Shown one piece after another: positions 6,764 through 61,100 of a stretch of 64,000 nt of DNA. Under the pieces are notes generated by a model. The model made no database searches, was not told the DNA's origin, and saw only the letters and a list, made by a program, of their open reading frames with translations. The position numbers and the translations under genes were made by a program. Source of the stretch: an uncultured Actinomycetota bacterium (GTDB lineage: Bacteria; Actinomycetota; Actinomycetes; JACCUZ01); assembly GCA_963746175.1 (NCBI GenBank), contig CAVVAH010000008.1, positions 800,377 through 864,376 of the forward strand, read 5' to 3'. Within the stretch, counting starts at the first letter, position 1. Each line of letters starts with the position of its first letter.

Positions 6764-6784
6764 CGCTGCACCGACCGTCGACAG

Positions 6785-25765: not shown

Positions 25766-25767
25766 GA

Positions 25768-39259: not shown

Positions 39260-42831
<3,572 letters not shown>

Positions 42832-46193: not shown

Positions 46194-46934
46194 ATGACCG
46201 AGCAGGCCGTCACGCCGCCCCGGGAGCGGGAGACCTTCGCCCAGGTGGCGGCACGGCTCGGTGCCGCGCAGAAGAGCACCGTCGGCGTCCCCGCGTACCT
46301 GAGGTTCGTGAACCGCAAGGCCGGCGGCCTGCTTGCCGTTGCCGCCCATCAGGCCGGGCTCTCCCCCGCCCAGGTGACAGCGATGAGTGCGTCGTGCGCG
46401 CTCGCCGGGATCGCCGGCCTCGTCCTCGTGGAGCCGTCGCTGTGGCTCGGCATCGCGGTTGCCGTCGCGCTGTGCCTGGGTTACGCCCTGGACTCCGCCG
46501 ACGGGCAGCTCGCCAGGCTGCAGAGGAGGCAGGGCCCCGCCGGCGAGTGGCTCGACCACGTGGTGGACTGCGCCAAGTCGCTGTTGCTGCACGGCGCCGT
46601 GCTCACCTCGATGTACCGATTCTTCGACCTGTCCCACGAGGCGCTCCTCCTGCTCCCGGTCGGCTTCTCGACAGTCGGCCTCACCTTCTACTTCGCCATG
46701 ATGCTGCGCGACCAGCTGCTGAAGGGGCTGGATGCCGGCGCGCGCACGGGGGACGGCTCGGTGGCCCGCTCCTTCCTGCTGCTTCCCGCCGACTACGGGA
46801 CTCTGTGCCTCTCCTTCTGCCTTCTGGGGGCCGAGAACCTCTTCCTGCTGGCTTACGGCTTCTTGTTCCTGAGCACTGCCCTGCTGGCGGCACGGGGGCT
46901 GCCCAAGGCCTACCGGTTGCTGTCGGCGGGCTGA
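46194..46934 (+). CDS. CDP-alcohol phosphatidyltransferase family membrane protein
   Basis: DSADGQLAR...GEWLDHVVD, the D-G-x2-A-R...G-x3-D-x3-D signature. Confidence 0.7.
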   Translation: MTEQAVTPPRERETFAQVAARLGAAQKSTVGVPAYLRFVNRKAGGLLAVAAHQAGLSPAQVTAMSASCALAGIAGLVLVEPSLWLGIAVAVALCLGYALDSADGQLARLQRRQGPAGEWLDHVVDCAKSLLLHGAVLTSMYRFFDLSHEALLLLPVGFSTVGLTFYFAMMLRDQLLKGLDAGARTGDGSVARSFLLLPADYGTLCLSFCLLGAENLFLLAYGFLFLSTALLAARGLPKAYRLLSAG

Positions 46935-47091
46935 GTCGGCCTCGCGTCACCTCGACCACCGGTTCATGGCAATCCGCCCGATGTGCAACGCGGCCGCCGC
47001 TACTCTGATGGACGCCCCTGTACCGGCTGTGGTCGACTCGTTCTGCGGTTCACCAGGGCCTCCTGTCCGCCCTGCGCCTGCAACACCGTGA

Positions 47092-48684
47092 GTGAGACGA
47101 CCGAGCATGCGGGATGACGACCGCTCCAGGGAGCCTGCGCACGGCGACCTGCCCGACCGCGAGCTCATGCTCACCTCCGTCGCGCGCGGTGGCAGCGCGG
47201 CGTTCGGCGGCACGTCGGCCGCCGCGGTCCTCGGGTTCGCTCTGACGGTCGTGGTCACCCGCGGCCTCAGCACCGGGACCGCAGGGGAGTTCTTCAGCGC
47301 TACGGCGCTCTTCCTCGTCTCCCAGACCGCACTCAGCTTCGGCGTCGCCGCAGGCGTCGTCCGCTTCGTCCCGCGGCTGCGGGCTCAGAGCCGCGAGGCG
47401 GACGTGCCGGCCATGCTCGTCATCGCCGTGGTACCGGTGGCACTCGCGGCCGTGCTCGGTGGTATCGCGATGTGGTTCGCGTCGCCGCTGCTGGCTGAGC
47501 ACTTCCACCACCAGGCATCGGTGTCCCCACCCGGCACGTTCCACCTGCTGGCGGTGTTCGTGCCCGTCGGGGTGCTCGAGGTGGTGGCGGTGGAGTCCAC
47601 GCGGGCGTTCGGAAGCATCGGACGCTACGTGCTGATCCAGCAGATCCTGCTGCCGCTGGCGCGGCCGGTGCTCGTGCTCGTAGCGCTCACCGTCGACGCC
47701 CCGCTGTGGGGCGTGGTACTTGCCTGGCTGCTGCCCTTGGTGGTGGCGCTGACACTTGCCGCCTTGGTCGTGACCGCGGCGTTGACGGCGACCTGCGGCC
47801 GTCCCTTCCCGTGGCCGCAGCGCACCGTCCCGCTGCCCACGCTTGCGCGCGAGTACTGGTCCTTCACCGGGGCCCGAGGCGTTGCCAGCGTCATCGACAT
47901 CCTGCTGACCTGGTTGGACGTCCTCCTCGTGGCGGCCATCGTGTCTCCGAGGGATGCGGCGATCTACGCCGCGGCCAGCCGCTTCATCACCTCGGGCACG
48001 CTGGTCATGCAGGCGCTGCGCCTGGCGATCTCCCCGGATCTCAGCGCCGCTCTGGCCCGCAACGACCTCATGAGGGCAGCGGAGATGTACCGCGTCTCCA
48101 CCCAGTGGATCCTGCTCTCCTCGTGGCCCCTGTACCTGACGATGGGTGTCTTCGCGCCCACCGTGCTCGGTGTCTTCGGGCCGACGTACTCCGAGGGCGC
48201 GACAGCGATGTCGGTCCTGTGCGCCGCCATGCTCGTCGCCCTCGCCGCCGGCAACGTGGGGTCGGTGCTGCTGATGGGCGGGCGCAGCACCTGGGTCCTG
48301 GGCGACAAGGTCGTCGCCCTGAGCGTGAACGTGACGGCGAACCTGCTCCTCGTGCCTCGCTACGGACTCACGGGGGCCGCCGTCGCGTGGGCGCTCACCA
48401 TCGTGGTCGACAACGCCATGGGCTTCGCCCAGGTCCGCTGGGGCATGCACATCTCCGCGCGCAGCCGCGGTATCGGGCTCGCGGCCGGGGCCTCGCTGCT
48501 CCTGTACGGCGTAGGCCTGCTCGGTGTCCGGTGGATCTGGGGCTCGACCCCGACGTCGCTGTTCGTGGGCGCGACCCTGGCATCTGCGATCTATGTCGGA
48601 TTTGCCTGGCGGCAGCGCGCCGTGCTGGATCTCCCCCTCCTGGTCGCGGCCTTGCGACGGCGCACCGGATCGCCGATCGAGTGA
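47092..48684 (+). CDS. wzx: polysaccharide biosynthesis protein / Wzx-type flippase (PST family)
   Basis: 530 aa, about 14 TM helices, typical PST N-terminal topology. Confidence 0.65.
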   Translation: MRRPSMRDDDRSREPAHGDLPDRELMLTSVARGGSAAFGGTSAAAVLGFALTVVVTRGLSTGTAGEFFSATALFLVSQTALSFGVAAGVVRFVPRLRAQSREADVPAMLVIAVVPVALAAVLGGIAMWFASPLLAEHFHHQASVSPPGTFHLLAVFVPVGVLEVVAVESTRAFGSIGRYVLIQQILLPLARPVLVLVALTVDAPLWGVVLAWLLPLVVALTLAALVVTAALTATCGRPFPWPQRTVPLPTLAREYWSFTGARGVASVIDILLTWLDVLLVAAIVSPRDAAIYAAASRFITSGTLVMQALRLAISPDLSAALARNDLMRAAEMYRVSTQWILLSSWPLYLTMGVFAPTVLGVFGPTYSEGATAMSVLCAAMLVALAAGNVGSVLLMGGRSTWVLGDKVVALSVNVTANLLLVPRYGLTGAAVAWALTIVVDNAMGFAQVRWGMHISARSRGIGLAAGASLLLYGVGLLGVRWIWGSTPTSLFVGATLASAIYVGFAWRQRAVLDLPLLVAALRRRTGSPIE

Positions 48685-48824
48685 CGGTGCCCGAACTGCG
48701 GGCGACCAGCCGTGTTCTGGCCTATCCTGGCGAGCAAGGGCTGACCTGACGGGGCCGGCGGTTTGCGCCTGCCGCGGGACCGTCCTGTCGGCATCGATGC
48801 TTCATCCACTGTGGGGGGAACCGC

Positions 48825-49256
48825 ATGGGACGCAGAGTTGGCTATGCCCCGGGCGTCTACGACCTGTTCCACGTCGGGCACCTCAACATCCTGCGCGAGG
48901 CGCGCAAGGCGTGCGACTTCCTCGTCGCGGGCGTGGTCTCCGACGAGATGGCGGTCCGGGCCAAGGGCCGGCCGCCGGTCATCCCGCTGCACGAGCGCCT
49001 CGAGATCGTCCAGAGCATCACCTACGTGGACCAGGCCTACGCGGAGACGGTGCCCGACAAGCTGACGGTCTGGGAGGAGCTCCGCTTCGACGTGATCTTC
49101 AAGGGGGACGACTGGCGCGGCACCGAGAAGGGCGACAAGCTCGAGCGCGACTTCGCCAGCGTGGGCGTCGAGGTCGTCTACTTCGCCTACACCGTGGAGA
49201 CATCGAGCGCGAAGCTTCGCGACGTCCTTGACGTACTGCTCGAGCCGGCCTCGTGA
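48825..49256 (+). CDS. tagD: glycerol-3-phosphate cytidylyltransferase (CDP-glycerol synthesis)
   Basis: GVYDLFHVGHLNIL (HxGH) and the RTEGISTS-like TEKGDKL region. 143 aa, the typical TagD size. Confidence 0.85.
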   Translation: MGRRVGYAPGVYDLFHVGHLNILREARKACDFLVAGVVSDEMAVRAKGRPPVIPLHERLEIVQSITYVDQAYAETVPDKLTVWEELRFDVIFKGDDWRGTEKGDKLERDFASVGVEVVYFAYTVETSSAKLRDVLDVLLEPAS

Positions 49257-49342
49257 ACGGGTGCCGCCCCGTATGACCGACCGACCTCGACGGACCTCGA
49301 CCTGGAGCTCCTGCTGCCCCGGCTGCAGGGAGGAAGCACTCC

Positions 49343-51000
49343 GTGGCTGACGTCGACCGGACCGTCGCCAGCAGCGTCACGATCTCGCAGTTCGTGGCCG
49401 TGCTCCGTCAGAGGTGGCACGTCATCGCGGCGATCGTGGCACTGTGCCTGCTTGCCGCCGGGGGCTTGCTCTCCTCCACTCCCCCGACCTACAGCGCTCG
49501 CGCCGTGGTACGGGTGACCCCGCTGACCGGCACGGCCGACAAGGACATCAGCACCATCACCGAGTCCAGGATCGCCACCTCGACCTCGGTCGCCCGGCGG
49601 GTCCGCACGCTGCTCAAGACCGACCGGACACCCGCGCAGCTCGTGTCGCACGTCGCCGTCAGCTCGCCGCTCGACAGCCAGGTGCTGGCGTTCGAGTACT
49701 CCGCCAGCTCCGCGCGCAAGGCCGCGGCCGGGGCCAACGCGTTCGCGGAGGCCTACCTGGCCTACCGCCGTGACACCAAGCAGGGCGAGCTGGACAAGCA
49801 GGACGCCCGGATCTCCCAGCAGATCGGCGAGGCAGCGGTCTGCTCACGGAGCTCGACCAGAAGCTGCGCGCGGCGGGCCTCGACGCGGACCAGCGGGCCG
49901 CAGACGGAGACGAGCGCACCGCCGCGCAGCTGCAGCTGCGCAACCTGCGTGCCGAGCAGTCCAGCCTGCGGTCCTTGACGCTGACCCCCGGTCAGCTCGC
50001 CGGCCGGGCCCTGGAGCCCACCGGTCCCGACTCACCGCGTCCGGTCATCTATCTCGCGGGCGGGCTGTTGTTCGGCTTCCTGCTGGGGTCGGTCGCGGCC
50101 GTCGCCCTGGATCGCCGCGATGACGGGATCCACGGTGTCGACGACCTCGAGCGCAGCGCAGGCGTGCCGGTCCTCGCAACCCTGCAGGGCGACTCGTTCC
50201 GCCGCGGATCCGCGACCCGAGGCTTCGCGGCCGTCGACGACGTCTACGGGACCGAGGCAGACGCGTTCCGGACCCTGGCTGCGAAGCTCAGGGGACCAGC
50301 AACGGGACGCGGTGCCCGGAGCATCGTGCTGGTGTGCCCTGGCGGCCGCAACGCCCGTCTTGCGCCGGCGAACCTCGCCGTGACGTTGGCCCGGCAGGGT
50401 CTCGACGTGGCGCTGATCGCCGCCGATGGGGCCATGGCCCGGACGACCGAACTGCTCGCGGCGCTGGCCAGGGCGGGGGCCGAGTCCGAGCTCCGCCACA
50501 GGGACGGCTCGCGGCGCGTTCCCGCCGTCGACCGGGTGCACCTGCTGTCCCTGGGCGACGAGCTCCTGCTGGACGCGACGCTGCGCGATCCCGATGCCCT
50601 CGGGCTCGACGCCGTCATGGAGAAGGCCGACATCATGGTCGTCGACGCGGTCAACCTGCAGCTGCCGTCCAGCACGTTGACGTTGGGACGGTTGGCGGAC
50701 GCAGCCCTGGTGCTCGGCGAGGAGCGGAAGAGCCGGCACACCGACGTCCGCAGAGCCGTGCGTGATCTCGCACAGGTGGGCACGCCCGTGGTGGGCGCGA
50801 CCTACGTCCGTCGTCGCCGCCGGTTTCCGGTCCGCTGGTCCGTCCGCCGCCCGAAGCCGGTGAGCCAGCCCACGCACGCCGCAGCAAGGCCCAGACCCGC
50901 ACTCGTCCGCACGCCCAAGGCTCCGGTGGCGCGCGCCCTCCGGCCCGGGCCCGACGAGCCGGACGACGACTCGCAGACGCACCAGACCGCCAGCCGCTGA
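49343..51000 (+). CDS. polysaccharide co-polymerase (Wzz/PCP-like) with a C-terminal BY-kinase-like ATPase domain carrying a degenerate Walker A; apparent frameshift near 49843
   Basis: N-terminal TM plus the Wzz region (SARAVVRVTPL). The coiled-coil LLTELDQKLRAAGLD continues in another frame. The second TM (VIYLAGGLLFGFLLG), then SIVLVCPGGRNARLAPANLA where the GKS/T is expected. Confidence 0.6.
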
Positions 51001-51010
51001 CGGTCGTTGC

Positions 51011-52315
51011 TCACGCCCGGTTGGCGACGGGGGCGCGCTGCGGCTCGCGCACAGTCGCGGGTGTCTCCGTATCCTCGACGCCCCGCATCGCCACTCCCGC
51101 GGCAGCCATGGCGACCGCGAGCTGCATGCCGTCGTATCCGTAGAAGAACACCGTCAGCAGTACGACGACGAGCGTGACATGGACGAACAGGCTGGCCTGT
51201 GTCGGCAGTGCGCGGGTGCACCACGCCGCCACGATGAACCAGGCCAGGAAGAAGAACAGCGCAGGGAAGCCGTAGCTGAACATCACGTTCCAGACCTGGC
51301 CCTGGGTGCCGATGGAGATGTCCAACGTCTCGGAGGGCTTCGGGGAGCCGTTGCCGAAGACGGGGGATGCCACGGCACCGTCGTACGCCTCGCGATAGAT
51401 CGTCTGGCGCCCCACGTTGGTCTGGCTGTAGTGCAGACGTTCGGACAGCGAGGACGTCACTCCGGTCGCCACGGCGATGACCACGCCCGACAAGGCGGAG
51501 ATGAGGATCGCCACGAGCGGCACCAGCCGTCCCCGCAGAGCGAGCCGGATCGAGGCGTACGCGAGGCCGAACCCGACGGCGAGGAACATGCCACGGTTCA
51601 ACGTGGCGAATGCCGGGACGGTCGCAGCGGCCAGCGTTCCGATCAGCAGCAACCGCACGCGGCCGCGTCCGACCATGCTGACGGTGGCGAGGACGAGGGG
51701 CACGAGCAGCGCGACGTTGCAGCCCCAGCTGTTCGTGTACGGGAACGGCGCGCTGGGACGGTAGAACGTGCGGGGTGAACCGTAGGGCTGCTGGACCTCG
51801 GCGAAGGTGGGGTTCACGAGCGCGTGGACGTACTCGTTCTGCGCGATCGCGGCAGGCAGGACCTGGGCGACGGGGGTCGACAAGGTCACCCGCGGCAGGA
51901 GGAGACCGAGGTACCCACCGATGACGACGAACCCGAAGAAGGCGGCCAGACCCAGCAGGACGCGCCTGGTCGGGAGTGACCTCTGCGTGCTGTTGTAGAT
52001 GTAGAGGAAGACCAGCGTCGCGCCGGCGTACGTGCTCAGCCGTACGGCGAAGCCGATCAGACGCAGTGAGCCCTGGACCTCCACGGCGGCGAAGCAGGCC
52101 CAGAGGACGAACAGCAGCCACAGCACGAATCCTCGTGGCATCCGGACGTTCCGGCGGACGCACAGCAGCACGGCCATGGGGACGGCGGTCAACGCCAGGG
52201 CGAAGCCGCCCAGGCCGAGCACCCACCAGACGGGGTAGCCGACGAACAGGACGTAGAACGGCCACGCCGGGAGGTCCGGTCCGGTCCCCGCCTCCGCTGA
52301 CCGGGTCGTCCTCAC
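51011..52315 (-). CDS. O-antigen ligase/polymerase-like (Wzy/WaaL family) membrane protein
   Basis: 434 aa, about 11 TM helices with a large periplasmic loop. GC content noticeably lower than the flanks. Confidence 0.6.
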   Translation of the reverse strand: MRTTRSAEAGTGPDLPAWPFYVLFVGYPVWWVLGLGGFALALTAVPMAVLLCVRRNVRMPRGFVLWLLFVLWACFAAVEVQGSLRLIGFAVRLSTYAGATLVFLYIYNSTQRSLPTRRVLLGLAAFFGFVVIGGYLGLLLPRVTLSTPVAQVLPAAIAQNEYVHALVNPTFAEVQQPYGSPRTFYRPSAPFPYTNSWGCNVALLVPLVLATVSMVGRGRVRLLLIGTLAAATVPAFATLNRGMFLAVGFGLAYASIRLALRGRLVPLVAILISALSGVVIAVATGVTSSLSERLHYSQTNVGRQTIYREAYDGAVASPVFGNGSPKPSETLDISIGTQGQVWNVMFSYGFPALFFFLAWFIVAAWCTRALPTQASLFVHVTLVVVLLTVFFYGYDGMQLAVAMAAAGVAMRGVEDTETPATVREPQRAPVANRA

Positions 52316-52316
52316 C

Positions 52317-53279
52317 TCAGAAGCCTCGCCCGACGCGCCGTCCGGCTGCGATCACCCTGTCGGCACTCATCAGGCCACTCGCCACGAGCAGTGCCGCGTA
52401 GCTGTGCCGAACACGCCTCGACCTGCGCAGCGACCGACCGGCATAACGAACCGCTCGCCGCCGTCGGCCCATGGCCGCGTTCGCGAACGCGATCTGGCCT
52501 TCTATCCGGGCCAGCCCACGCGGCTGACGCGAGAACTCGGGAACCCGAGCGAGCAGGTAGGTCAGGGCCTCGTCGATCATCGTCCAGCGACTGACGAAGA
52601 ACGACGAGTCGTGCCAGTAGATGCGGGTCAACGGCTCCTGCACGCAGAGGATCGGTCCGGTGCGGGCGGCCCGAAGCAACCACTCGTAGTCCTCGGCGTA
52701 ACCGCCCGGGAGGTCCTCGTCCACCAGACCCACCGGCCCGAGCAGGCCGGCCTTGCGGGCCATGAACGAGGAGGAGTTCGCCTCGATGTGGCGGCTCCGC
52801 AGCAGGTCGTCGAACGACAGCTCCGCGTGGTCGGCCGGCCGTTCGAGATCGCGGCCTCGATGATTGATCAGGATTCCGGTTCCGCAGGCGCTGGCGTCCG
52901 GGCGGCTCCGGAGCAGCTCGACCTGCGCCGAGACCTTTCCCGGGAGCCACTCGTCGTCGTCGTCACACCCGCAGATGAGCTCGCCGGCTGCTTGCAGGTA
53001 GCCGGTGTTGCGCGTGCCTGCCAGACCGGGCGACCGGGAGTTCGTCACGACCCTCAGCGTCCGGTGGGCCGACTCTGCCACGTCGGGTCGGACCGGCTCG
53101 GTCCGGTCGAAGACCACGATGCACTCGATGTGTCCGGGATAGTCCTGACCGAGGATCGACGTCACCGTGCGGCGGAGCAGCTCCGGCCGGTCGCGCGTCG
53201 GGACGACGGCGGTCACCTGCGGCCACTCGGACACGTCGGCCCGCGCAGGCAGCGCCGTGGGGTCGACCTCCAAGTCCAT
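52317..53279 (-). CDS. family 2 glycosyltransferase
   Basis: VVPTRDRPELL and the DxD motif CDDDDEW. Confidence 0.75.
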   Translation of the reverse strand: MDLEVDPTALPARADVSEWPQVTAVVPTRDRPELLRRTVTSILGQDYPGHIECIVVFDRTEPVRPDVAESAHRTLRVVTNSRSPGLAGTRNTGYLQAAGELICGCDDDDEWLPGKVSAQVELLRSRPDASACGTGILINHRGRDLERPADHAELSFDDLLRSRHIEANSSSFMARKAGLLGPVGLVDEDLPGGYAEDYEWLLRAARTGPILCVQEPLTRIYWHDSSFFVSRWTMIDEALTYLLARVPEFSRQPRGLARIEGQIAFANAAMGRRRRAVRYAGRSLRRSRRVRHSYAALLVASGLMSADRVIAAGRRVGRGF

Positions 53280-53392: not shown

Positions 53393-54342
53393 TCACCGCC
53401 ACTGGTACACGCGGACGTAGTCGATCGCATAGTCAGCAGGGAACGCGGTCGCCGCATCCGGTTCGCCCGGCCACGATCCACCGACTGCGAGGTTCAGGCG
53501 CAGGAAGAACGGTCGGTTGAACGCATCGTCGAGCCACGGTGTGCTGACCCTGCTCCGCATATACGTGAGCTTCCGGTCGACGTACCACCGGATGCTGCCT
53601 CGCTGCCACTTCACGACGTAGGTGTGGAAGCCGTCCGACGGAGAGCCGGACGGGAACTCCACGCTGGTCGACTCCTGAGGGAAGCTGCTGTCGTAGTCGA
53701 ACCAGATGGTGTGGTGAACCTGGTTCCACTCTGACGATGAGGCATCGCCACCTATCGCCTCGAGAGCGTCCAGCTCCCCCGCACCGCCGTCCGTCGGTCG
53801 AAGCCAGAACGCCGGCCAGAGGCCCTTCGACGTGGCGCGTTGCGTCGGCAAGCGTGCCCGGATCTCGAAGCGCCCGTAGGTCCAGGCAGCCTTGCCCTTC
53901 GTGGAGATCATGGCGGAGCTGTACTCGCGCCCCTGCGGGAACCGAGGATCCTGTGAGCCGCACGGGAGCGGGACACTCTCGCGCTGGGCTCGCAGGGACA
54001 GGACACCGTCCCGCAGAGCGACGTTCTCGGGCCGGTCCATCAGGCAGGCGAGCTCGCCGTTGCCCTCTCCGAAGGTGGACCTGTCCTCGACCAGCCACTT
54101 GCGCGGCGCGAGGGCTCGGCCGGAGAACTCGTCGTGCCACACCAGCTTCCATCCGGGGACGTGCTGCGGGCCGGCGGAAAAGGCACCCGTGGACAGCAGG
54201 ACGGCACCGATGGCGGTGACGACGACGAGCACGCCCGCAACCGCCGCAGCGCCGGGCGACAGCCCCGATGATCCGACGAGTCGACTGCGGTAGCCCCCCA
54301 CACCCTCACGGTAGGCCACCGCGACGAGGCCCGAGCGGACAT
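53393..54342 (-). CDS. GH16 family glycoside hydrolase (beta-1,3-glucanase/laminarinase-like), membrane-anchored
   Basis: Catalytic GELDALE (ExDxxE). Signal-anchor AAAVAGVLVVVTAIGAVLL. Start uncertain: the ATG at 54342 is in a neighbouring frame across a gggggg run, and an in-frame GTG lies near 54313. Confidence 0.7.
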
Positions 54343-54366
54343 CGCTCCACTCGGGCCTCGGTCGGG

Positions 54367-55989
54367 CTATCGCTGGTAGACGCGGACCCAGTCGACCTGG
54401 TAGTCCGCCGGGAACTGGGTCGACGAGGTCGGGGTTCCTGGCCACGACCCGCCGACCTGCATGTTCAGCCTGATGTTGAAGTTCCGGCCGAACGACTTGT
54501 CGATCCACGGGATGTCGCTGCGGCTCCGGGTGTAGGTGACCGTGTCGTCGACCAGGAACCGGATGACACCCGGCTCCCACTCCACGGCATAGGTGTGGAA
54601 CTTCTCCGACATCGTGTCGCCACCCGCGAAGGTGACCCCGTGCGCCTGCCTCGGGTAGGTGTTGTTGTAGTCCGCCCACAACGTCTGACTCACCGAGTTG
54701 TAGTTCCGCTCCCCCGCACCGGAACCGATCGCCTCCATGATGTCGATCTCGCCGTCACCACCGTCGTCGGGACGCAACCAGAACGCAGGCCACAGACCCT
54801 TGGACGTGTCAGCCTGCGTCGGCAGCTTCGCCCGCATCTCGAACCGCCCGTACGTGCGAGACATCTTGCCGATGGTGTCCAGGTAACCGGAGGTCCAGCT
54901 GCTGCTGTAGCCACCGCAGGTGTACTGCTCACGCTGCGCGACGATGTGCAGGACGCCGCCGCTGACCGCCACGTTCTGCGGCCGGCTCGTCAAGCAGGAC
55001 AGCTCGTTGGAGTTGTGGTCCCCGTTACGGACCCGCCACTTCGAACCGTCCACCGCGGAACCGTTGAACTCGTCCGACCAGGCCAACCGCCAGTTCGCCG
55101 GAGCTGGCGTCGTCGGAGCCGGCGGCGGCGGCGACGTGCTCGGGGCCGACGTGGTCGGTGCCGGTGCCGGCGCAGGCGTGGTCGGTGCCGACGTGGTCGG
55201 TGCCGGTGCCGGCGCAGGCGTGGTCGGTGCCGACGTGGTCGGTGCCGGTGCCGGTGCTGGCGAGGTCGCGCTCGGCGCCGACGAGGTCTTGCTCGGTGCC
55301 GGTGCCGGGGGGGTCGTCGTGACCGGTGCCGGCGCGTGGGTCTGTGCCGGCGCCGGCGCCGGTGCAGGTGTCGGTTTCGACGTGGTGGTGCTCGGTACGG
55401 GCGCCGACGTGGCCGTCCACAGCGTCACGTCGTCGATGTCCAGCGACGCCGACGATGGAAGCTGCCACGCGAGAGCATTCAGGTCGAGAGTCGCTCCGTC
55501 GCTCGCGGCCACATAGCTGAGGTTGACCTGCTGCCACCCCGTGGTCCTCAACCACACGCTCGCAACCTTCTGGCCGAGAAGGGTGGAACCGCGGTACTCC
55601 ATGACGCGCAGTGCAGCCGTGGTCCCCGGTGCCGTCGTGCGCAGCCATGCCGATGCGCTGTACACCACTCCTCGCTTGGTCTGCGACACCGTGTTGGCCG
55701 AATCGTTCAGCACGGATGTCAGGGGACCGGCCGACGTGTTCGTCACGTGACCCGCGAACGACCCACTGTGCCCCGCCGAACGTGTCAGGGTCGCGCCTGC
55801 CTTGGTCACCCAGCCTGTCGTGCTCGACTCGAAGGTCGGGTTCACGACGAGGTTCTCCTGGGCCGCCGAGGCCGAGAGGGCGAAGAAAGCGACGACGAGG
55901 GAGGCGGCGGAGACGATGGCGACTGGCGGGCCCAAAGTCTTTCCGGCCCTTTTCGCTGGGTGGGGGCGAGGGATCCGGTGACGGGACAT
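54367..55989 (-). CDS. secreted GH16 beta-glucanase with an N-terminal CBM-like domain and Pro/Thr-rich linker
   Basis: Signal peptide. PAPAPTTSAPTT x3 linker. Catalytic GEIDIMEAIG. The C-terminal about 265 aa are nearly identical to the next gene. Confidence 0.8.
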   Translation of the reverse strand: MSRHRIPRPHPAKRAGKTLGPPVAIVSAASLVVAFFALSASAAQENLVVNPTFESSTTGWVTKAGATLTRSAGHSGSFAGHVTNTSAGPLTSVLNDSANTVSQTKRGVVYSASAWLRTTAPGTTAALRVMEYRGSTLLGQKVASVWLRTTGWQQVNLSYVAASDGATLDLNALAWQLPSSASLDIDDVTLWTATSAPVPSTTTSKPTPAPAPAPAQTHAPAPVTTTPPAPAPSKTSSAPSATSPAPAPAPTTSAPTTPAPAPAPTTSAPTTPAPAPAPTTSAPSTSPPPPAPTTPAPANWRLAWSDEFNGSAVDGSKWRVRNGDHNSNELSCLTSRPQNVAVSGGVLHIVAQREQYTCGGYSSSWTSGYLDTIGKMSRTYGRFEMRAKLPTQADTSKGLWPAFWLRPDDGGDGEIDIMEAIGSGAGERNYNSVSQTLWADYNNTYPRQAHGVTFAGGDTMSEKFHTYAVEWEPGVIRFLVDDTVTYTRSRSDIPWIDKSFGRNFNIRLNMQVGGSWPGTPTSSTQFPADYQVDWVRVYQR

Positions 55990-56130: not shown

Positions 56131-56925
56131 CATGGCGCGGGCTATCGCTGGTAGACGCGGACCCAGTCGACCTGGTAGTCCGCCGGGAACTGGGTCGACG
56201 AGGTCGGGGTTCCTGGCCACGACCCGCCGACCTGCATGTTCAGCCTGATGTTGAAGTTCCGGCCGAACGACTTGTCGATCCACGGGATGTCGCTGCGGCT
56301 CCGGGTGTAGGTGACCGTGTCGTCGACCAGGAACCGGATGACACCCGGCTCCCACTCCACGGCATAGGTGTGGAACTTCTCCGACATCGTGTCGCCACCC
56401 GCGAAGGTGACCCCGTGCGCCTGCCTCGGGTAGGTGTTGTTGTAGTCCGCCCACAACGTCTGACTCACCGAGTTGTAGTTCCGCTCCCCCGCACCGGAAC
56501 CGATCGCCTCCATGATGTCGATCTCGCCGTCACCACCGTCGTCGGGACGCAACCAGAACGCAGGCCACAGACCCTTGGACGTGTCAGCCTGCGTCGGCAG
56601 CTTCGCCCGCATCTCGAACCGCCCGTACGTGCGAGACATCGTGCCGATGGTGTCCAGGTAACCGGAGGTCCAGCTGCTGCTGTAGCCACCGCAGGTGTAC
56701 TGCTCACGCTGCGCGACGATGTGCAGGACGCCGCCGCTGACCGCCACGTTCTGCGGCCGGCTCGTCAAGCAGGACAGCTCGTTGGAGTTGTGGTCCCCGT
56801 TACGGACCCGCCACTTCGAACCGTCCACCGCGGAACCGTTGAACTCGTCCGACCAGGCCAACCGCCAGTTCGCCGGAGCTGGCGTCGTCGGAGCCGGCGG
56901 CGGCGGCGACGTGCTCGGGGCCGGC
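56131..56925. repeat. about 0.8-kb near-perfect direct repeat (tandem duplication) of 54356-55150
   Basis: Identical runs, including cgggctatcgctggtagacgcggacccagtcgacctggtagtccgcc at both 54361 and 56136. Identical spurious antisense ORFs. Confidence 0.85.
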
Positions 56926-57596
56926 GGGGTCGTGGCCGCGGGCGTCGTCCCGGCCGCCTTCACCCGTGGAGACGCGCTGGGCGGCAGGCGCACGACGCGG
57001 ACCTTGTCGACATCGAACGCCTTGGCGACCGGCAGGGCCCAGGCGATGGCGACGACCCTGAGCGCGTCACCACGGGTCTTGGCCTTGTACCGCACCGTGA
57101 CCTTGTGCCACGCCCGGTCCGCGAGAACGACCCTGGACAGCACTCGACCGTCGACGCGATCGCCCGCTCGCTCCGTCAGGCGCAGCGCGACCTTCGTCCC
57201 GGGCGCCGTCGTGCGCAGCCGCGCGGTGGCCCGGTAGACCACGCCCTTGCGGGTCTCCGGCACGGCACCGGTGGGCGCGCGCAGCACAGCCTTCCGCGGC
57301 ACGGACAGGCTGTGGATCCGTGCAGCGCTCTCCGACTCGTATCCCGGTGCACTGCTCAGCCTCAGGCCCGGATCGACGTGCCATCCGCCGGTCGTGCGCT
57401 CGAAGTCTGCCCGCTGGACCAGAGCCGGCTGCGGCTGCGCGCCCGATGGGCTCTGCGCGCCCGATGCCATCTGGGCGCCCGCACCGCTCAGCGATCCGAC
57501 CATGGCGGCGATGGCGACGACAGGGACGGCGGCCGTTCTCCACCTGCCCCGAGGGCCGCGACGCTGCGCGCGTCCCGGTGCTCTGTGCTTCGGCAT
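56142..57596 (-). CDS. secreted GH16 beta-glucanase paralog with a different N-terminal beta-sandwich domain
   Basis: Same catalytic domain (GEIDIMEAIG) as 54367-55989, with one K/T difference. Distinct N-terminus. Confidence 0.8.
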   Translation of the reverse strand: MPKHRAPGRAQRRGPRGRWRTAAVPVVAIAAMVGSLSGAGAQMASGAQSPSGAQPQPALVQRADFERTTGGWHVDPGLRLSSAPGYESESAARIHSLSVPRKAVLRAPTGAVPETRKGVVYRATARLRTTAPGTKVALRLTERAGDRVDGRVLSRVVLADRAWHKVTVRYKAKTRGDALRVVAIAWALPVAKAFDVDKVRVVRLPPSASPRVKAAGTTPAATTPPAPSTSPPPPAPTTPAPANWRLAWSDEFNGSAVDGSKWRVRNGDHNSNELSCLTSRPQNVAVSGGVLHIVAQREQYTCGGYSSSWTSGYLDTIGTMSRTYGRFEMRAKLPTQADTSKGLWPAFWLRPDDGGDGEIDIMEAIGSGAGERNYNSVSQTLWADYNNTYPRQAHGVTFAGGDTMSEKFHTYAVEWEPGVIRFLVDDTVTYTRSRSDIPWIDKSFGRNFNIRLNMQVGGSWPGTPTSSTQFPADYQVDWVRVYQR

Positions 57597-58082
57597 CTGG
57601 CGTCGCCTTCCGTCTACCACGAGCTGCCCCGGGGGACACTGGTGCTCCTGGCGGTCGTCGGACCGAACGCTGCGGCGCTTGAGCGGCTTTGCCAAACCTG
57701 GGAGGAAGTGCGGCTCGTTCGTGGCGGGAGTGGCCGTGCGTAGGACGGCTCGGAGCGGTACACGTGATGTGGGCGAAGCATCTGTCTCCCGCGTCAGCGG
57801 GCTCCACCGGTGAGTGGAGCGAGGGGGGCGAGGAAGCACGCAAGACGTAGTGCCTCACGCACCGCCAGTCAGGTGGCTTCCCCCCACCGAGACGGCTCGG
57901 ACGAGCTGTTCCGTCATGCAGCCGGTGGTCATCCGTTAGGCCGCTTGACGACTCATGGATAGCCGATGTGGCAAGGAGATCGCAACTCGATCATCGATCG
58001 GCGCGCCACAGGCGTTCGCATGGTTACTGCGAGTACTTCTCTCGCTGCGCACACGTATCCGAGGCACCGTCCGGACGGCGAA

Positions 58083-58135: not shown

Positions 58136-61100
58136 CTAGTTCGCCGCCTCGCGCAGGGCGAGATCATCGATGGCGACGGCCTTGGCGCCGACGTTCGTTC
58201 CCCCGCGCACCAACGACAGGTGCAGCTGCCCCGCCGCCGACACGCTGGAGTCGGTCTCCACCGCCGACCAGGTGGACGGCTCGACCTGGCCGTCCCGCCA
58301 GATGCGGAAGCTGATGGAGCTGCCGACGACGCGCAGCCGGAGCCACTGCTTGTCGGTCGTGACCGCCTGACCCCCAGTGACGTTGCGTAGGTTCGTCGTC
58401 ACACCGTTGACGTTCTTCTGGACGGTCACCGTGCCAGAGCTCGGGGAGAGCTGCAGGCCGTAGCCGTTGCGCGGCCGGTAGCCGTTCTGCCACCCGCCGG
58501 ATCCGCGGAGGTAGACGCTGAACGCCGCATTGGCAGTGAGCTGCTTCCAGCGGTACGAGAACAGGATCTCGGAGTCGGCGGTCGCGGCGACACCGGTCAG
58601 CTGTGCCCTGCTGTAGGCGTTCGTCACGTCCGTGAAGGACAGCTCTCCTTCGCCACCTTGGGTGAGCACGGCGCCACTGGCCGTGCCAGCAGACCAGCTG
58701 CTTCCCCAGGGAGAGCCGTCAGCCGCGGACCAGGTGTCTGCGAAGAGCAGCTGGGCACCGGCCGGCGTCGTCACATCAGCACCCGGGCTGTCACCACTCA
58801 CGTTCCCGGCGGCATCGACGGCGCGGACGGTCCAGTGATAGCTGGTGCCACCGGTCAGGCCCACATCGGTGAACGTCAGCCCGGAGACGGTGCCCGGCAG
58901 CGTCACGCCGTTGCGGACCACCTGGTAACCGACCACCCCGCGGTCGTCCGACGCTGCGGGCCACGTCAGGTCGGCCTGCGTCGCCGTCACATTGGTCGCC
59001 GTCAGTGCCGCGGGTGCGTTCGGCGCCGTCGTGTCCGAAGGCACGGTGACTGTGACGAGTGCGGAGCTCGCCTGGTTGCCGGAGGTGTCCGTGGCGACGA
59101 CCCGGAGCGTGTGCGAACCGACCGCGGTGGCGCTCCACGAGAACTCGTAGGGCAGGGCGTCATCCGTCGCGACCAGAGTGCCGTCGACCTCCAGGCCGAC
59201 CGAGGCGACCGCACGGTCGTCCGACGCCGTCGCCGTGACGGCGGTGTCGCCGTAGAGGACGGCCCCGTCCGACGGCGAGGTCAGAGAGGCGGTCGGCTTG
59301 GTGGTGTCAGGCGTGAGCACCGCGGCACCGACCGTTGTGGCGGAACGGTTCCCCTCGTCGTCGATCGCCCGGACGAAGTACGTCGCCGGCAGCGACGCCG
59401 TGGTGTCCGTGTAGTTCAAGGTCGTCGCAGACGTCGTCGCGATGACGCGGTCGTTGCGCAGGACCTCGTACGTCGGGCTGCCACTGGCGTCGGTCGAGGC
59501 GGACCAGGTCACCTTGATGCCTGTGTCGGTGGGGACCGCCTTCAGGTTCGTCGGGACGGTCGGGGCCGTGGTGTCACGCGGGCAGAACTTTCCGAACCCC
59601 CCGAGCCACTGGTAGGCGGTGCCCGTCCACGAGCCCTTCGTCATGTCGCCGCCGAACCAGAGGCAGCTGTTGGAGTCCTTCGTCAGCTCCCATGGTCCGA
59701 TGCCACCACGCGTGTCGAGCGAAGCCGGGTAGAAGTCCGGCAGGTACTCACCCGTGGTCGCGTCCCACGCGCCGATCAGGCTGATGGTGTTGACGTCCGT
59801 CGCCGACGGGATCGGGTCGTTGTAGCTCCGAGTGCCCGAGTAGTTCCAGTTGCCGCAGTGACAGGAACCGTAGACGACACCGTCGACGGCCCCGAGCGCC
59901 TGGAAGTCGCCCCCGGCCTTCGTCATGTTGGTGCTGACGAACGAGAAGTCGGCCCGGCGGTACTGGCTCATGATGTGCTCGGACCCGCCGACCCAGACGT
60001 AGTCGCCGACCTCCTTGATGGTCTGCTGGTAGGTCTTCGTCGTGCCCGTCGACGGCAGCCACGGCTGCAGTCCCGGCACGTTGGCGGCGCCCGCCGCCGT
60101 GCTGACCACACCGACCCGCGGTGAGGAGATGTGGTTGACCTCGTCGAAGTAGCCCGCGAAGTACACGCGGTCGCCACGGTCGCTGGCATCGACCTCGGCA
60201 GGCGTGCCGTCGAAGTTGGGCTTCCAGGTGCCGTCCGGCTTGCCGTCGCTCACGCGCAGCCGGGCGGCCCGGCCGATCGTCACCGGTCCCACACTCGGGA
60301 CACCGCCGGTGATCCGGTTGATGCGACCGACGACGTAGACGTAGCCGTCCTGGTAGTCCAGGGCCCTGACCTGGGGCGTGAGCCCTGTCGTGTTGACGTA
60401 GTCGACGCTGGCACGCCAACCCGGGTCGACCGCACCGGTCACCGGGTCGAGCGCGGCGAGGCCGGTGGTGCCCGGCTCACCGTTGACGCTGGTGAACTCG
60501 CCGGCGATGATCAACGTCCCCTGGGGTGTCGCCTGCAGGTCCCAGACCTCGCCGTTGACGACCGGCCTGAACGTGCTCAGCCACTCCCCCGTGTTCACGT
60601 CGAAGCCTGCGACGTAGGACTGGTGGATCTTCTCGGCGGGCGAGGGATTGGCTCCCTTCTGTACCCACTCGAAGGTGCCGCCCACGTACATGACATCGCC
60701 GACCTGGGCGAAGGACTCCACCTCGAGCGTCAGCTCACCCTTGTATCCCCCGACGATGCCTGTCACGCCCCACGGGGTCGTGTTGGACGTCTGGGACGAC
60801 ATCAGCGGGCGAAGCGTGCTCGCGGGAAGACCGGCGGCGGGGATGGTGGGGTAGGTCACCGAGGTGAGCTTCGGGCGGATGAAGACCTGCGAGAACGGCA
60901 GTGCCGACTTCTCGGCCGCGTACTGCCACAGGTAGTTGTTCGGGTCGTTGGCGCCGGAGATCTTGTTGCCGTAGGCGAAGCCCTGCTTGTAGTTGTGCGC
61001 CGCAGCGTCGTTGGTCGTCATCCGCAGCAGGTTCTGGTCACCGTTGACCGCCCACGACTGGGTGTTACCGCCGGAGTAGGTGGTCCCGTTGATGATCACG

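What the first reader, a model, noticed from the sequence alone, without database searches (positions are those of the whole stretch)
46194..53279. Compact glycerol-phosphate/glycopolymer locus with lower GC than the flanks and a Wzz/BY-kinase-like protein lacking a canonical P-loop
The locus holds a CDP-alcohol phosphatidyltransferase, a Wzx flippase, TagD (CDP-glycerol), a Wzz-like co-polymerase, a Wzy/ligase-like protein and a GT2. This implies a Wzx/Wzy-dependent polymer decorated with glycerol phosphate, a teichoic-acid-like chemistry, rather than an ABC-dependent teichoic acid pathway. The Wzy-like gene (51011-52315) and parts of the locus are visibly less GC-rich than the rest of the window, which hints at horizontal origin. 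The PCP protein's kinase-like domain reads CPGGRNAR where Walker A GKS/T is expected, so it is probably a non-catalytic pseudo-kinase.
Basis: partly seen in the sequence, partly recalled or inferred. Interest (0 to 1): 0.5.

Follow-up and report, generated by a model that had tools for sequence, protein, structure and literature searches.

The report
Polysaccharide locus with dead-kinase co-polymerase
This is a resident, widely conserved actinobacterial gene cluster for a surface polysaccharide that probably carries a phospho-alcohol side group; its chain-length regulator has a permanently inactive kinase domain, and it is neither imported DNA nor a clearly broken gene.

Summary
They are a CDP-alcohol phosphotransferase, a Wzx-type flippase, a small cytidylyltransferase, a Wzc-like co-polymerase (PCP), an O-antigen-ligase/Wzy-family protein and a GT2.

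The PCP's cytoplasmic domain has the BY-kinase fold but lacks the Walker A lysine, Walker A' and the tyrosine tail. About 60 actinobacterial relatives show the same loss, so it is a conserved pseudokinase. Correcting the frameshift cannot restore a P-loop.

The frameshift near 49.83 kb is real in this sequence but is probably an assembly error:
- A 99.3%-identical public contig carries a different frameshift at the same 13-bp site.
- Two housekeeping genes in the window are also frameshifted.
- The closest relative found (69% aa identity, a JGI metagenome contig) has an intact 539-aa gene.

GC is about 3 points below the left flank, but the right flank is lower still. Codon usage is unremarkable. 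The whole gene order recurs next to mfd in Nocardioides, Jatrophihabitans and several MAGs, so horizontal origin is not supported.

"TagD" is not established. The enzyme scores equally with ethanolamine-phosphate and glycerol-3-phosphate cytidylyltransferases.

The cytidylyltransferase/CDP-alcohol-phosphotransferase pair recurs inside actinobacterial Wzx/Wzy clusters. It appears to be uncharacterised.

The parts
46194..46934 (+). Small (246 aa) membrane CDP-alcohol phosphotransferase family protein. The catalytic motif DSADGQLAR-x8-GEWLDHVVD lies at 46491-46568.
   Evidence: PF01066 at 26.4 bits (cut-off 22). AF2 model pLDDT 92; best fold match is AF2299 (4o6m), TM 0.69, followed by PIP synthases, DIPPS and CEPT1. 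Profile vs PDB: AF2299 E=1e-8. More than 2,600 homologues, all with generic names.
47092..48684 (+). Wzx-type (MOP superfamily) flippase. The start is probably near 47106.
   Evidence: PF01943 at 33.9 bits (cut-off 28.2). At least 9 hydrophobic segments. 54-58% identical in syntenic loci.
48825..49256 (+). 143-aa cytidylyltransferase of the TagD/ECT/CCT branch. HxGH lies at 48867-48881, and GDDW is present. The C-terminal motif is YTVETSSA instead of RTEGISTT.
   Evidence: PF01467 at 55 bits. TIGR01518 at 60.7 bits against a cut-off of 165.4. PDB: ECT 3elb, TagD 1coz/2b7l, CCT. 55-73% identical to orthologues, including those in Streptomyces.
49343..51000 (+). Fused PCP-2a (Wzc-like) co-polymerase. 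It has TM1 at 49415-49477, a Wzz-type extracytoplasmic domain of about 190 aa, TM2 at 50044-50109, a cytoplasmic BY-kinase-fold domain, and an Arg/Pro-rich tail with no tyrosine cluster. It is read in two frames in this sequence.
   Evidence: PF02706 Wzz on the N-terminal part. Family profile vs PDB: Wzc 7ni2 E=5e-13, CapAB 8.5e-12. AF2 model of the 69%-identical P0002 (pLDDT 83) matches full-length Wzc (E=8e-21) and kinase domains at TM about 0.7. Two TM segments.
49830..49843 (+). Apparent -1 frameshift site (one base missing relative to an intact ORF).
   Evidence: Frame plot and translations. The 99.3%-identical ENA contig differs here by a 2-bp indel plus 3 substitutions and is frameshifted the other way. 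Restoring one base gives a junction that is gap-free against P0002.
50335..50367 (+). Degenerate Walker A equivalent, CPGGRNARLAP. The GK[ST] lysine position is Ala.
   Evidence: Alignments to CapA1B1 and Wzc. The same loss is seen in P0002-P0060.
50407..50439 (+). Degenerate Walker A' equivalent, VALIAADGAMA (canonical is hhhhDxDxR).
50632..50655 (+). Walker B equivalent, IMVVDAVN. The Asp is retained and is invariant in the clade; the canonical PP is absent.
51011..52315 (-). O-antigen-ligase/Wzy-family polytopic membrane protein, the presumed repeat-unit polymerase.
   Evidence: About 10-12 hydrophobic segments. Most of the 120 listed homologues (50-95% identical) carry PF04932. Syntenic in all close loci.
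52317..53279 (-). Soluble GT2 glycosyltransferase with a DDDD(E) motif. Its stop is 1 nt from the Wzy start.
   Evidence: PF00535 at 69.8 bits. No TM segment. Sequence.
53393..54250 (-). GH16 glycanase.
   Evidence: PF00722 at 70.9 bits; NCBIfam endo-1,3-1,4-beta-glycanase EglC/ExoK-like. Syntenic.
54367..55989 (-). CBM4_9, a Pro/Thr-rich linker and GH16.
56142..57854 (-). Third GH16 gene. Its 3' 795 bp are 99.6% identical to 54363-55157.
58136..63999 (-). Two very large secreted proteins (RGI_lyase-like/Big_7/fn3, and Laminin_G_3/Big_7/fn3). They are conserved at this position in orthologous loci and run off the window.
   Evidence: Synteny.

Best explanation
The region is the core of a long-resident actinobacterial Wzx/Wzy-dependent surface-polysaccharide locus. 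It sits at a fixed chromosomal site beside mfd.

ORGANISATION: two convergent operons.
- Plus strand: CDP-alcohol phosphotransferase, Wzx, cytidylyltransferase, PCP.
- Minus strand: large secreted proteins, GH16 glycanases, GT2, Wzy.

INFERRED MECHANISM (none of these steps is shown directly):
1. A phosphoglycosyl transferase encoded outside the window primes undecaprenyl phosphate.
2. GT2 extends the repeat unit.
3. The cytidylyltransferase makes a CDP-alcohol from CTP and a common alcohol phosphate. sn-Glycerol-3-phosphate is the most parsimonious candidate; phosphoethanolamine is not excluded.
4. The membrane CDP-alcohol phosphotransferase transfers the alcohol phosphate to a hydroxyl of the lipid-linked unit and releases CMP.
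5. Wzx flips the unit and the Wzy-family protein polymerises it.
6. The fused PCP-2a sets polymerisation and chain length.
7. The GH16 enzymes trim the product.

THE PCP (shown): it has the Wzc architecture and the BY-kinase fold, but no Walker A lysine, no Walker A' and no tyrosine tail. It cannot run a phosphorylation cycle. By inference it acts as a phosphorylation-independent oligomerisation scaffold, as proposed for GumC, EcpK and HfsB.

The frameshift is most likely an assembly error. The GC dip is a compositional property of the locus.
For: GENE IDENTITIES.

PCP FOLD AND HOMOLOGY.

MOTIF LOSS
- All of about 60 relatives at 36-69% identity lack the motifs.
- 71 of 84 related genome loci lack GK[ST].
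- 111 of 142 top 50%-identity cluster representatives lack it.
- Conservation persists in the dead domain: an invariant Walker B Asp, the motif LAPLNLAATFA-QGL, and a D-x2-R remnant of ExxRxxR.

SYNTENY
- The order mfd / CT / (epimerase) / CDPOH / Wzx / PCP / Alg14 / Alg13 / Wzy / GT2 / GH16 / CBM-GH16 / giant protein is seen in N. panacis, in Jatrophihabitans (including J. lederbergiae DSM 44399) and in MAGs.

CT-CDPOH COUPLING
- They co-occur in 43 of the 44 loci that carry either partner.
- Their genes overlap by 4 nt in Agromyces, downstream of a Bac_transf PGT and a GT4.
- CDPOH lies among glycosyltransferases, Wzx, Wzy and Wzz in Rhodococcus and Streptomyces.
- The best solved relatives of the CT (ECT, TagD, CCT; also Fom1) activate an alcohol phosphate or phosphonate with CMP.

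FRAMESHIFT AS ARTEFACT
- The window and ENA contig_13518 differ by 29 indels in 21 kb and disagree at the site.
- PEPC and ndh are also frameshifted in the window.
- Gene calls are fragmented in sister assemblies.
- The PCP is intact at 539 aa and PEPC is intact in the closest JGI metagenome contigs.

NO HGT.
Against: - No biochemical evidence exists for any step.
- The alcohol cannot be identified from sequence: TagD and ECT tie, and the RTEGISTT motif is diverged.
- The acceptor of the CDP-alcohol phosphotransferase is inferred only from gene context.
- No priming transferase lies within the 64 kb.
- Both near-identical assemblies are out of frame at the same site. A real lesion or population heterogeneity there is therefore not excluded.
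- Substitutions between the two strains in the PCP are 7 non-synonymous to 6 synonymous, against 4 to 9 in GT2. This is compatible with relaxed constraint, though the numbers are small.
- Residual nucleotide binding by the degenerate P-loop is not excluded.
Confidence: 0.6

Rival explanations
1. The PCP gene really is a pseudogene in this strain (a true frameshift), so the locus is decaying or chain-length control has been lost.
For: Two independent, 99.3%-identical assemblies are both out of frame within the same 13 bp. The PCP shows 7 non-synonymous to 6 synonymous differences between the two strains.
Against: - The two assemblies carry different lesions at the site (-1 versus +1), and the ENA contig has two further indels nearby.
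- Housekeeping PEPC and ndh are also frameshifted in the window.
- GC3 stays at 0.88-0.94 on both sides of the site.
- Both halves stay about 66-77% identical to the intact P0002.
- All neighbouring genes are intact.
Confidence: 0.2
2. The locus is a recently acquired genomic island.
For: GC is 3 points lower than the left flank, p=1e-5. GC3 is slightly lower, at 0.86-0.94 against 0.94-0.96.
Against: - The right flank is lower still.
- Codon usage is within the flank range.
- No integrase, transposase or tRNA lies at the borders; the only tRNA is 23 kb away.
- The gene order and the position beside mfd are conserved across genera.
- A similar dip is seen in N. panacis and other loci.
Confidence: 0.07
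3. The CT/CDPOH pair adds a different head group (phosphoethanolamine, phosphocholine or a phosphonate) rather than glycerol phosphate.
For: Human ECT is the top PDB match. The KG-PPV segment resembles ECT/CCT more than TagD. CPT1/CEPT1 are among the solved relatives of the CDPOH.
Against: - No ethanolamine or choline kinase and no PEP mutase is present in any of the loci inspected.
- The enzyme has the single-domain size of TagD and aligns with it end to end, including GDDW-G.
- A two-gene module suggests a ubiquitous precursor such as glycerol-3-phosphate.
Confidence: 0.3
4. The CT/CDPOH pair makes a membrane phospholipid or lipid anchor, unrelated to decoration of the repeat unit.
For: Most characterised PF01066 enzymes make phospholipids. 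PIP synthases are close structural matches. NCBIfam's best hit is archaetidylinositol-phosphate synthase at 42 bits.
Against: The scores are far below the family cut-offs. The gene is embedded among glycosyltransferases, Wzx, Wzy and PCP genes in very different actinobacterial clusters, and it is translationally coupled to the CT.
Confidence: 0.12
5. The degenerate domain still binds nucleotide, or it is regulated by a separate BY-kinase/phosphatase pair encoded elsewhere.
For: The Walker B Asp is invariant and the loop stays Gly-rich. The rest of the genome is not available.
Against: No tyrosine cluster is present to phosphorylate. No BY-kinase-like sequence or in-frame Walker A other than mfd's occurs in the 64 kb. 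No kinase or phosphatase was seen in the syntenic loci.
Confidence: 0.1

Closest known systems
GumC (Xanthomonas xanthan PCP) and the stand-alone BY pseudokinases EcpK (Myxococcus) and HfsB (Caulobacter)
   Same: All have a BY-kinase-like cytoplasmic domain that lacks catalytic motifs and/or the Tyr cluster and works with a PCP-2 in a Wzx/Wzy pathway. A scaffold role independent of phosphorylation has been proposed for them (PMC9800525; PMC12004946). As in EcpK, the C-terminus here is basic and free of tyrosine clusters.
   Different: Here the dead domain is fused to a short, CapA-like extracytoplasmic domain in a Gram-positive phylum, so there is no OPX partner. The Walker B Asp and part of the ExxRxxR motif are kept. 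The clade is large and is linked to a CT/CDPOH module.
Wzc (E. coli) and CapAB (S. aureus), the canonical PCP-2a/2b with active BY-kinase
   Same: The overall architecture and fold match (Foldseek E=8e-21 to Wzc; TM about 0.7 to CapAB, BceF and the Wzc kinase domains). Profile homology is E=5e-13.
   Different: Walker A GK[ST], Walker A' DxDxR and the Tyr-rich tail are absent. The extracytoplasmic domain is about 190 aa, against about 400 aa in Wzc.
Succinoglycan (exo) cluster of Sinorhizobium: ExoP/ExoQ/ExoT with the ExoK glycanase
   Same: Both combine a Wzx/Wzy/PCP pathway with dedicated GH16 endo-glycanases in the same locus. NCBIfam gives ExoK/EglC-like hits for the GH16 genes. JGI names some PCP relatives ExoP.
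   Different: ExoP is an active tyrosine kinase (own knowledge). The exo cluster has no CDP-alcohol module. This is a resemblance of organisation, not orthology.
CDP-alcohol-dependent decoration of Wzx/Wzy-built polymers in Firmicutes (pneumococcal teichoic acid and glycerol- or ribitol-phosphate capsules)
   Same: A cytoplasmic cytidylyltransferase supplies a CDP-alcohol, and its alcohol phosphate is added to an undecaprenyl-linked repeat unit before Wzx flipping (own knowledge of these pathways).
   Different: Those systems use TagF/TagB-type or LicD-type transferases. Here the transferase is a PF01066 integral-membrane enzyme. Full-text searches for that combination found no paper.
AF2299, IPCT-DIPPS (Archaeoglobus) and eukaryotic CPT1/CEPT1
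   Same: These are the closest solved relatives of the CDPOH. DIPPS and CPT1/CEPT1 use soluble CDP-alcohols, and in IPCT-DIPPS the cytidylyltransferase is coupled to the transferase (own knowledge; the DIPPS fusion is named).
   Different: Sequence identity is 16-20%. The acceptor here is presumed to be a lipid-linked glycan rather than inositol phosphate or diacylglycerol. The cytidylyltransferase belongs to a different fold class from IPCT.

Membership tests
Catalytic BY-kinase (Wzc/CapB/Etk type) | Walker A G-x-x-G-x-GK[ST] | tested here: not met
   CPGGRNARLAP. Ala occupies the Lys position in alignments to CapA1B1 and Wzc. The motif is absent in the whole clade.
Catalytic BY-kinase (Wzc/CapB/Etk type) | Walker A' hhhhDxDxR | tested here: not met
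   The window has VALIAADGAMA and the clade consensus is TVIAGPRQAVEP.
Catalytic BY-kinase (Wzc/CapB/Etk type) | Walker B hhhhDxPP | tested here: inconclusive
   IMVVDAVN. The Asp is kept and is invariant in 29 sequences, but the PP is missing.
Catalytic BY-kinase (Wzc/CapB/Etk type) | C-terminal tyrosine cluster | tested here: not met
   The tail is Arg/Pro-rich and holds a single Tyr; relatives have 0-2 Tyr in the last 40 residues.
Catalytic BY-kinase (Wzc/CapB/Etk type) | P-loop ATPase (MinD/ParA-like) fold | tested here: met
   The AF2 model of the 69%-identical orthologue matches CapAB, BceF and the Wzc kinase domains at TM 0.68-0.74.
PCP-2a (fused Wzc-like co-polymerase) | Two TM helices flanking a Wzz-type extracytoplasmic domain, followed by a cytoplasmic BYK-like domain in one polypeptide | tested here: met
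   PF02706. TM segments at residues 27-45 and 237-255. Full-length Foldseek match to Wzc. A single ORF in P0002 and about 60 relatives. In this window the polypeptide is interrupted by the frameshift.
BY pseudokinase (GumC/EcpK/HfsB kind) | BYK fold without catalytic motifs and without a Tyr tail, in a Wzx/Wzy cluster | tested here: met
   Definition taken from PMC12004946 and PMC9800525.
BY pseudokinase (GumC/EcpK/HfsB kind) | Needed for polymer synthesis and acts by protein-protein contact | not testable with these tools
   Requires genetics and biochemistry.
CDP-alcohol phosphatidyltransferase family (PF01066) | Motif D-x2-DG-x2-AR-x8-G-x3-D-x3-D on a polytopic membrane protein, with a score above the Pfam cut-off | tested here: met
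   The motif is intact and invariant in 28 homologues. 26.4 bits against 22. The fold matches AF2299.
TagD, glycerol-3-phosphate cytidylyltransferase (TIGR01518) | Equivalog score of at least 165.4 bits | tested here: not met
   60.7 bits; rfaE_dom_II scores 69.1 bits.
TagD, glycerol-3-phosphate cytidylyltransferase (TIGR01518) | HxGH and the C-terminal RTEGISTT motif | tested here: inconclusive
   HVGH and GDDW are present. The C-terminal motif is YTVETSSA in the window and PYTVHTSST in orthologues.
TagD, glycerol-3-phosphate cytidylyltransferase (TIGR01518) | Closer to TagD than to other cytidylyltransferases | tested here: not met
   Orthologue profile: ECT domain 1 scores 65.6 bits, TagD 64.8 bits and CCT 49 bits.
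Wzx (MOP flippase) | PF01943/PF13440 above the cut-off, on a polytopic protein | tested here: met
   33.9 bits against 28.2; at least 9 TM segments.
Wzy / O-antigen ligase family (PF04932) | Wzy_C domain on a protein with 10-12 TM helices | tested here: inconclusive
   The window protein has no hit at E<=0.01. Most of the 120 listed homologues (50-95% identical) carry PF04932. About 10-12 hydrophobic segments. Polymerase versus ligase cannot be told apart.
Classical wall teichoic acid pathway (TagF/TagB polymerase plus TagGH ABC exporter) | Glyphos_transf (PF04464) and an ABC exporter in the locus | tested here: not met
   Neither was found among the roughly 45 GC3-supported ORFs of the window that were scanned, nor in the syntenic loci.
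Horizontally acquired genomic island | Deviant composition and codon usage, mobility genes or tRNA at the borders, patchy presence at the site | tested here: not met
   A mild GC dip that is shared by orthologous loci. Codon usage z = 0.5-1.6. No border tRNA. Conserved position beside mfd.

The most novel reading that the evidence does not exclude
The small actinobacterial PF01066 enzymes paired with a TagD/ECT-like cytidylyltransferase would be an uncharacterised class of glycan phospho-alcohol transferases. They would decorate undecaprenyl-linked repeat units in Wzx/Wzy pathways, doing the job that TagF-, LicD- or EptA-type enzymes do elsewhere.

They also travel with fused, kinase-dead PCP-2a proteins. 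All 44 loci that carry the module have a Walker-A-less PCP, and none of the 13 loci with a canonical kinase carries it. This would imply that phosphorylation-independent chain-length control is the common mode for these polymers in Actinomycetota.
Probability: 0.35. Interest if true: 0.6.

Novelty: new variant of a known kind. Interest (0 to 1): 0.38.

Why it matters
Chain-length control by PCP-2 proteins is explained today by a tyrosine phosphorylation cycle. A large actinobacterial clade of fused co-polymerases that cannot run this cycle adds weight to the recent idea of phosphorylation-independent PCPs. The clade has cultured members in which this can be tested, including Nocardioides panacis, Jatrophihabitans lederbergiae, Motilibacter peucedani and many Streptomyces.

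The recurrent cytidylyltransferase/CDP-alcohol-phosphotransferase pair inside these clusters points to an unstudied route for putting phosphodiester-linked alcohols on actinobacterial surface polymers. Such teichoic-acid-like chemistry is known in this phylum, but its genetics are poorly known there.

For the scan itself, the practical lesson is that this window carries indel errors, so single frameshifts in it should not be read as pseudogenes.

Tried and rejected
- SPLICING THE ENA CONTIG'S VERSION OF THE SITE INTO THE WINDOW to repair the ORF failed. It adds 2 bases where 1 is needed, which showed that the ENA contig is itself frameshifted there.
- SEARCH FOR A COGNATE KINASE IN THE WINDOW: tblastn with canonical BY-kinase domains and a six-frame Walker A scan found only mfd's P-loop. 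Pfam scans of the GC3-supported flank ORFs found no kinase or phosphatase. The rest of the genome is not available. The species has no representative in the GTDB-based genome collection; the best hit there is 44% identical.
- RESOLVING THE CYTIDYLYLTRANSFERASE SUBSTRATE with NCBIfam, single-sequence PDB and profile PDB searches gave a tie.
- RESOLVING THE DONOR TYPE OF THE CDP-ALCOHOL PHOSPHOTRANSFERASE (soluble CDP-alcohol versus CDP-diacylglycerol) by profile and fold gave mixed neighbours.
- LITERATURE SEARCHES for PF01066 enzymes in Wzx/Wzy clusters, for actinobacterial LtaS-independent lipoteichoic acid genes and for Nocardioides teichoic acids returned nothing usable.
- A PRIMING PHOSPHOGLYCOSYL TRANSFERASE was sought in the window and not found.
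- One Pfam call failed on wrong coordinates.
- Rfam found only a tRNA.

Full report
WHAT IS IN THE SEQUENCE

The window is about 73% G+C, so genes were called from third-position GC rather than from raw ORFs. Between 46194 and 53279 there are six genes in two convergent groups.

Plus strand:
- A 246-aa CDP-alcohol phosphotransferase family protein at 46194-46934. It scores 26.4 bits on PF01066 against a cut-off of 22, and the full D-x2-DG-x2-AR-x8-G-x3-D-x3-D motif is present.
- A Wzx/MOP flippase at 47092-48684 (PF01943).
- A 143-aa cytidylyltransferase at 48825-49256 (PF01467).
- A polysaccharide co-polymerase at 49343-51000.

Minus strand:
- A polytopic O-antigen-ligase/Wzy-family protein at 51011-52315.
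- A soluble GT2 at 52317-53279.

The Wzy-like protein has no Pfam hit of its own. Its homologues (50-95% identical among the 120 listed) mostly carry PF04932 and are named O-antigen ligase family or PslJ.

The functional locus extends further right, into three GH16 glycanase genes and two very large secreted Big_7/fn3/Laminin_G proteins.

COMPOSITION

- In 1-kb windows the locus averages 0.702 G+C. The left 45 kb averages 0.734 +/- 0.020, and the region to the right averages 0.688. The dip is real but is not flanked on both sides; it runs from about 46 kb to the end of the window.
- The Wzy gene is 0.684. Most of its deficit sits in first codon positions (GC1 0.65, GC3 0.91), which reflects membrane-protein amino-acid composition.
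- Synonymous codon usage of every locus gene lies within the spread of the left-flank genes (z = 0.5-1.6).
- Orthologous loci in Nocardioides panacis and two MAGs show a similar dip relative to their mfd gene. Jatrophihabitans loci show it only over the GH16/giant-protein part.

THE CO-POLYMERASE

The N-terminal part is a Wzz domain between two TM helices. The C-terminal 300 residues match no Pfam P-loop family.

Homology and fold:
- A profile of 29 relatives hits full-length Wzc (E=5e-13) and also CapAB, BceF and VpsO.
- An AlphaFold model of the 69%-identical intact orthologue P0002 (pLDDT 83) matches full-length Wzc (Foldseek E=8e-21). It matches isolated BY-kinase domains at TM about 0.7.
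- The protein is therefore a fused PCP-2a with a BY-kinase fold.

Motifs in these alignments:
- The Walker A position reads CPGGRNARLAP, with Ala where the lysine should be.
- Walker A' (DxDxR) reads AADGA.
- The Walker B aspartate is kept.
- The tail is Arg/Pro-rich with no tyrosine cluster.

This is not a private defect:
- All of about 60 relatives at 36-69% identity (Jatrophihabitans, Motilibacter, N. panacis, Pseudonocardiales MAGs) lack GK[ST] and DxDxR. They nevertheless conserve a distinct motif, LAPLNLAATFA-QGL, the Walker B Asp, and a D-x2-R remnant of the ExxRxxR oligomerisation helix.
- Among 84 related genome loci, 71 lack GK[ST], including many Streptomyces, Kribbella and Sinosporangium.
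- Among the 142 best 50%-identity cluster representatives, 111 lack it.
- These samples are biased by the query, so they are not a census.

THE FRAMESHIFT

The frame changes between 49830 and 49843. One added base gives a 552-codon ORF whose junction aligns gap-free with P0002. The degenerate Walker A lies 500 nt downstream, in the frame that is conserved in all relatives. Repairing the shift therefore cannot create a P-loop.

Several observations argue that the shift is an assembly artefact:
- The window is 99.26% identical to ENA ERZ25039588 contig_13518, with 124 substitutions and 29 indels over 21 kb.
- At the frameshift site the two sequences differ by a 2-bp indel plus three substitutions. 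The ENA version is out of frame in the other direction and has two further nearby indels.
- The window-specific extra C at 44186 splits phosphoenolpyruvate carboxylase, which is intact (916 aa) in the ENA contig. The type-II NADH dehydrogenase gene also changes frame near 24795.
- Sister assemblies of the same ENA series have heavily fragmented gene calls.
- Two JGI metagenome contigs (sample 3300048101) from the closest relative found (69% PCP and 75% CDPOH identity) reproduce the window's gene order. In them the PCP is intact at 539 aa and PEPC at 922 aa.

Many substitutions between the window and the ENA contig are third-position synonymous (9 of 13 in GT2). The two are therefore real strain variants carrying superimposed indel noise. 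I put about 0.7 on artefact and about 0.2 on a true lesion.

SYNTENY AND DISTRIBUTION

- The left flank is core: eno, DUF885, mazG, mfd, ppc.
- In N. panacis CP077062, several Jatrophihabitans genomes (including J. lederbergiae DSM 44399) and MAGs, the order recurs directly beside mfd. It reads: cytidylyltransferase, (NAD-epimerase), CDP-alcohol phosphotransferase, Wzx, PCP, Alg14, Alg13, Wzy, GT2, GH16, CBM4_9-GH16, giant secreted protein.
- The window's lineage lacks the Alg14/Alg13 pair and the epimerase. It has the cytidylyltransferase between Wzx and PCP, as does a Nanopelagicales MAG.
- No mobility genes or border tRNA are present.
- Horizontal acquisition is therefore not supported.

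THE CDP-ALCOHOL MODULE

Co-occurrence and context:
- The cytidylyltransferase and the PF01066 protein co-occur in 43 of the 44 loci that carry either one.
- In Agromyces their genes overlap by 4 nt and follow a Bac_transf priming enzyme and a GT4.
- In Rhodococcus and Streptomyces the PF01066 gene lies among glycosyltransferase, Wzx, Wzy and Wzz genes.
- The cytidylyltransferase is 55-73% identical from this MAG to Streptomyces.

What can and cannot be said about substrates:
- The best solved relatives of the cytidylyltransferase are human ethanolamine-phosphate cytidylyltransferase (65.6 bits, domain 1), B. subtilis TagD (64.8), an RfaE-like protein (57.5), Fom1 (51) and CCT (49).
- The TagD equivalog model scores 60.7 against a cut-off of 165.4.
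- The enzyme clearly makes a CDP-alcohol-type product, but the alcohol is not determined.
- Glycerol-3-phosphate is the parsimonious guess. The module needs no extra precursor enzyme, and the protein has TagD's single-domain size and GDDW motif.
- The PF01066 protein models at pLDDT 92. It is closest to AF2299, then PIP synthases, DIPPS and CEPT1/CPT1. This does not settle the donor or the acceptor.

MECHANISM

- SHOWN: the gene identities; the PCP-2a architecture with a BY-kinase fold and no catalytic motifs; conserved synteny beside mfd; and tight CT-CDPOH linkage inside Wzx/Wzy clusters.
- INFERRED: priming on undecaprenyl phosphate by a transferase outside the window (none within the 64 kb; present nearby in N. 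panacis, Agromyces and Streptomyces loci). Extension by GT2, and cytoplasmic addition of an alcohol phosphate from a CDP-alcohol by the membrane transferase. Then Wzx flipping, Wzy polymerisation, chain-length control by an oligomeric and phosphorylation-independent PCP, and trimming by the GH16 enzymes.

COMPARISON WITH WHAT IS KNOWN, AND NOVELTY

- BY pseudokinases are a recognised kind. GumC has been called a pseudo-BY-kinase (PMC9800525). [quoted passage not shown]
- All of those cases are Gram-negative. The same review counts actinobacterial BY-kinases as overwhelmingly of the fused type (PMC9800525).
- The protein here is a fused, Gram-positive variant of that kind and belongs to a large clade.
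- I found no paper linking PF01066 enzymes to Wzx/Wzy clusters. The library searched is incomplete.
- Overall this is a new variant of a known kind: moderately interesting to specialists and not surprising in its outline.

WHAT LED NOWHERE

See the section on what was tried and rejected. The main failures were the attempts to identify the alcohol and the acceptor, and the search for a partner kinase or phosphatase beyond the window.

Noticed in passing
window 43312-46066 (+), site 44186: Phosphoenolpyruvate carboxylase is split into two frames (N-terminal part 43312-44190, C-terminal part 44273-46066). The cause is an extra C at 44186 that is absent from the 99.3%-identical ENA contig, where the gene is an intact 916 aa.
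   Followed up: yes
window 24430-25729 (-): The type-II NADH dehydrogenase gene changes frame near 24795. Its Pyr_redox_2 part and its NDH2_C part are in different frames. The mechanical ORF 23915-26059 reads through into an adjacent ACT-domain gene. This is another likely indel error.
   Followed up: partly
window 54363-55157 and 56138-56932: A 795-bp direct repeat, 99.6% identical. It forms the GH16 catalytic 3' halves of two neighbouring minus-strand genes. It could be a recent duplication, gene conversion or an assembly collapse.
   Followed up: partly
window 59600-61000: Differences from the ENA contig (substitutions and indels) are densely clustered inside the giant Big_7/fn3 secreted-protein gene. 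The density is far higher than elsewhere in the 21-kb overlap.
   Followed up: no
window 58136-62542 (-) and 61900-63999 (-): Two long minus-strand ORFs with strong GC3 signal overlap by about 640 nt in different frames. The true start of the first is probably near 61.8 kb, or there is another frameshift.
   Followed up: no
window 51000-51011: The PCP stop and the Wzy stop are convergent and only 10 bp apart. The Alg14/Alg13 glycosyltransferase pair that sits here in most orthologous loci is absent. It is also absent in the closest relative's contig, which starts at the PCP gene (sample 3300048101).
   Followed up: partly
window 23230-23305 (-): tRNA-Leu(TAA). It is the only RNA gene found in the window and lies far from the locus borders.
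   Followed up: yes
L031-L085 (Streptomyces loci): Streptomyces species carry the same cytidylyltransferase/CDP-alcohol-phosphotransferase pair with Walker-A-less PCPs, in two different cluster architectures. One has Wzx and a Bac_transf gene. The other has GT4s, a hexapeptide acyltransferase and a Laminin_G_3 protein.
   Followed up: partly
L003 (Nocardioides panacis CP077062) 3600-6800: A glycerophosphodiester phosphodiesterase (GDPD), an inositol-monophosphatase-family gene and a HAD hydrolase lie directly upstream of the cytidylyltransferase in this orthologous locus. This is a weak hint towards glycerophosphodiester chemistry.
   Followed up: no
window 39250-44298 (-): The mechanical mfd ORF is 1682 aa because the antisense of ppc has no stop codons. 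The Pfam domains begin at residue 642, so the real mfd is about 1200 aa and ends its 5' extent near 42.9 kb.
   Followed up: partly
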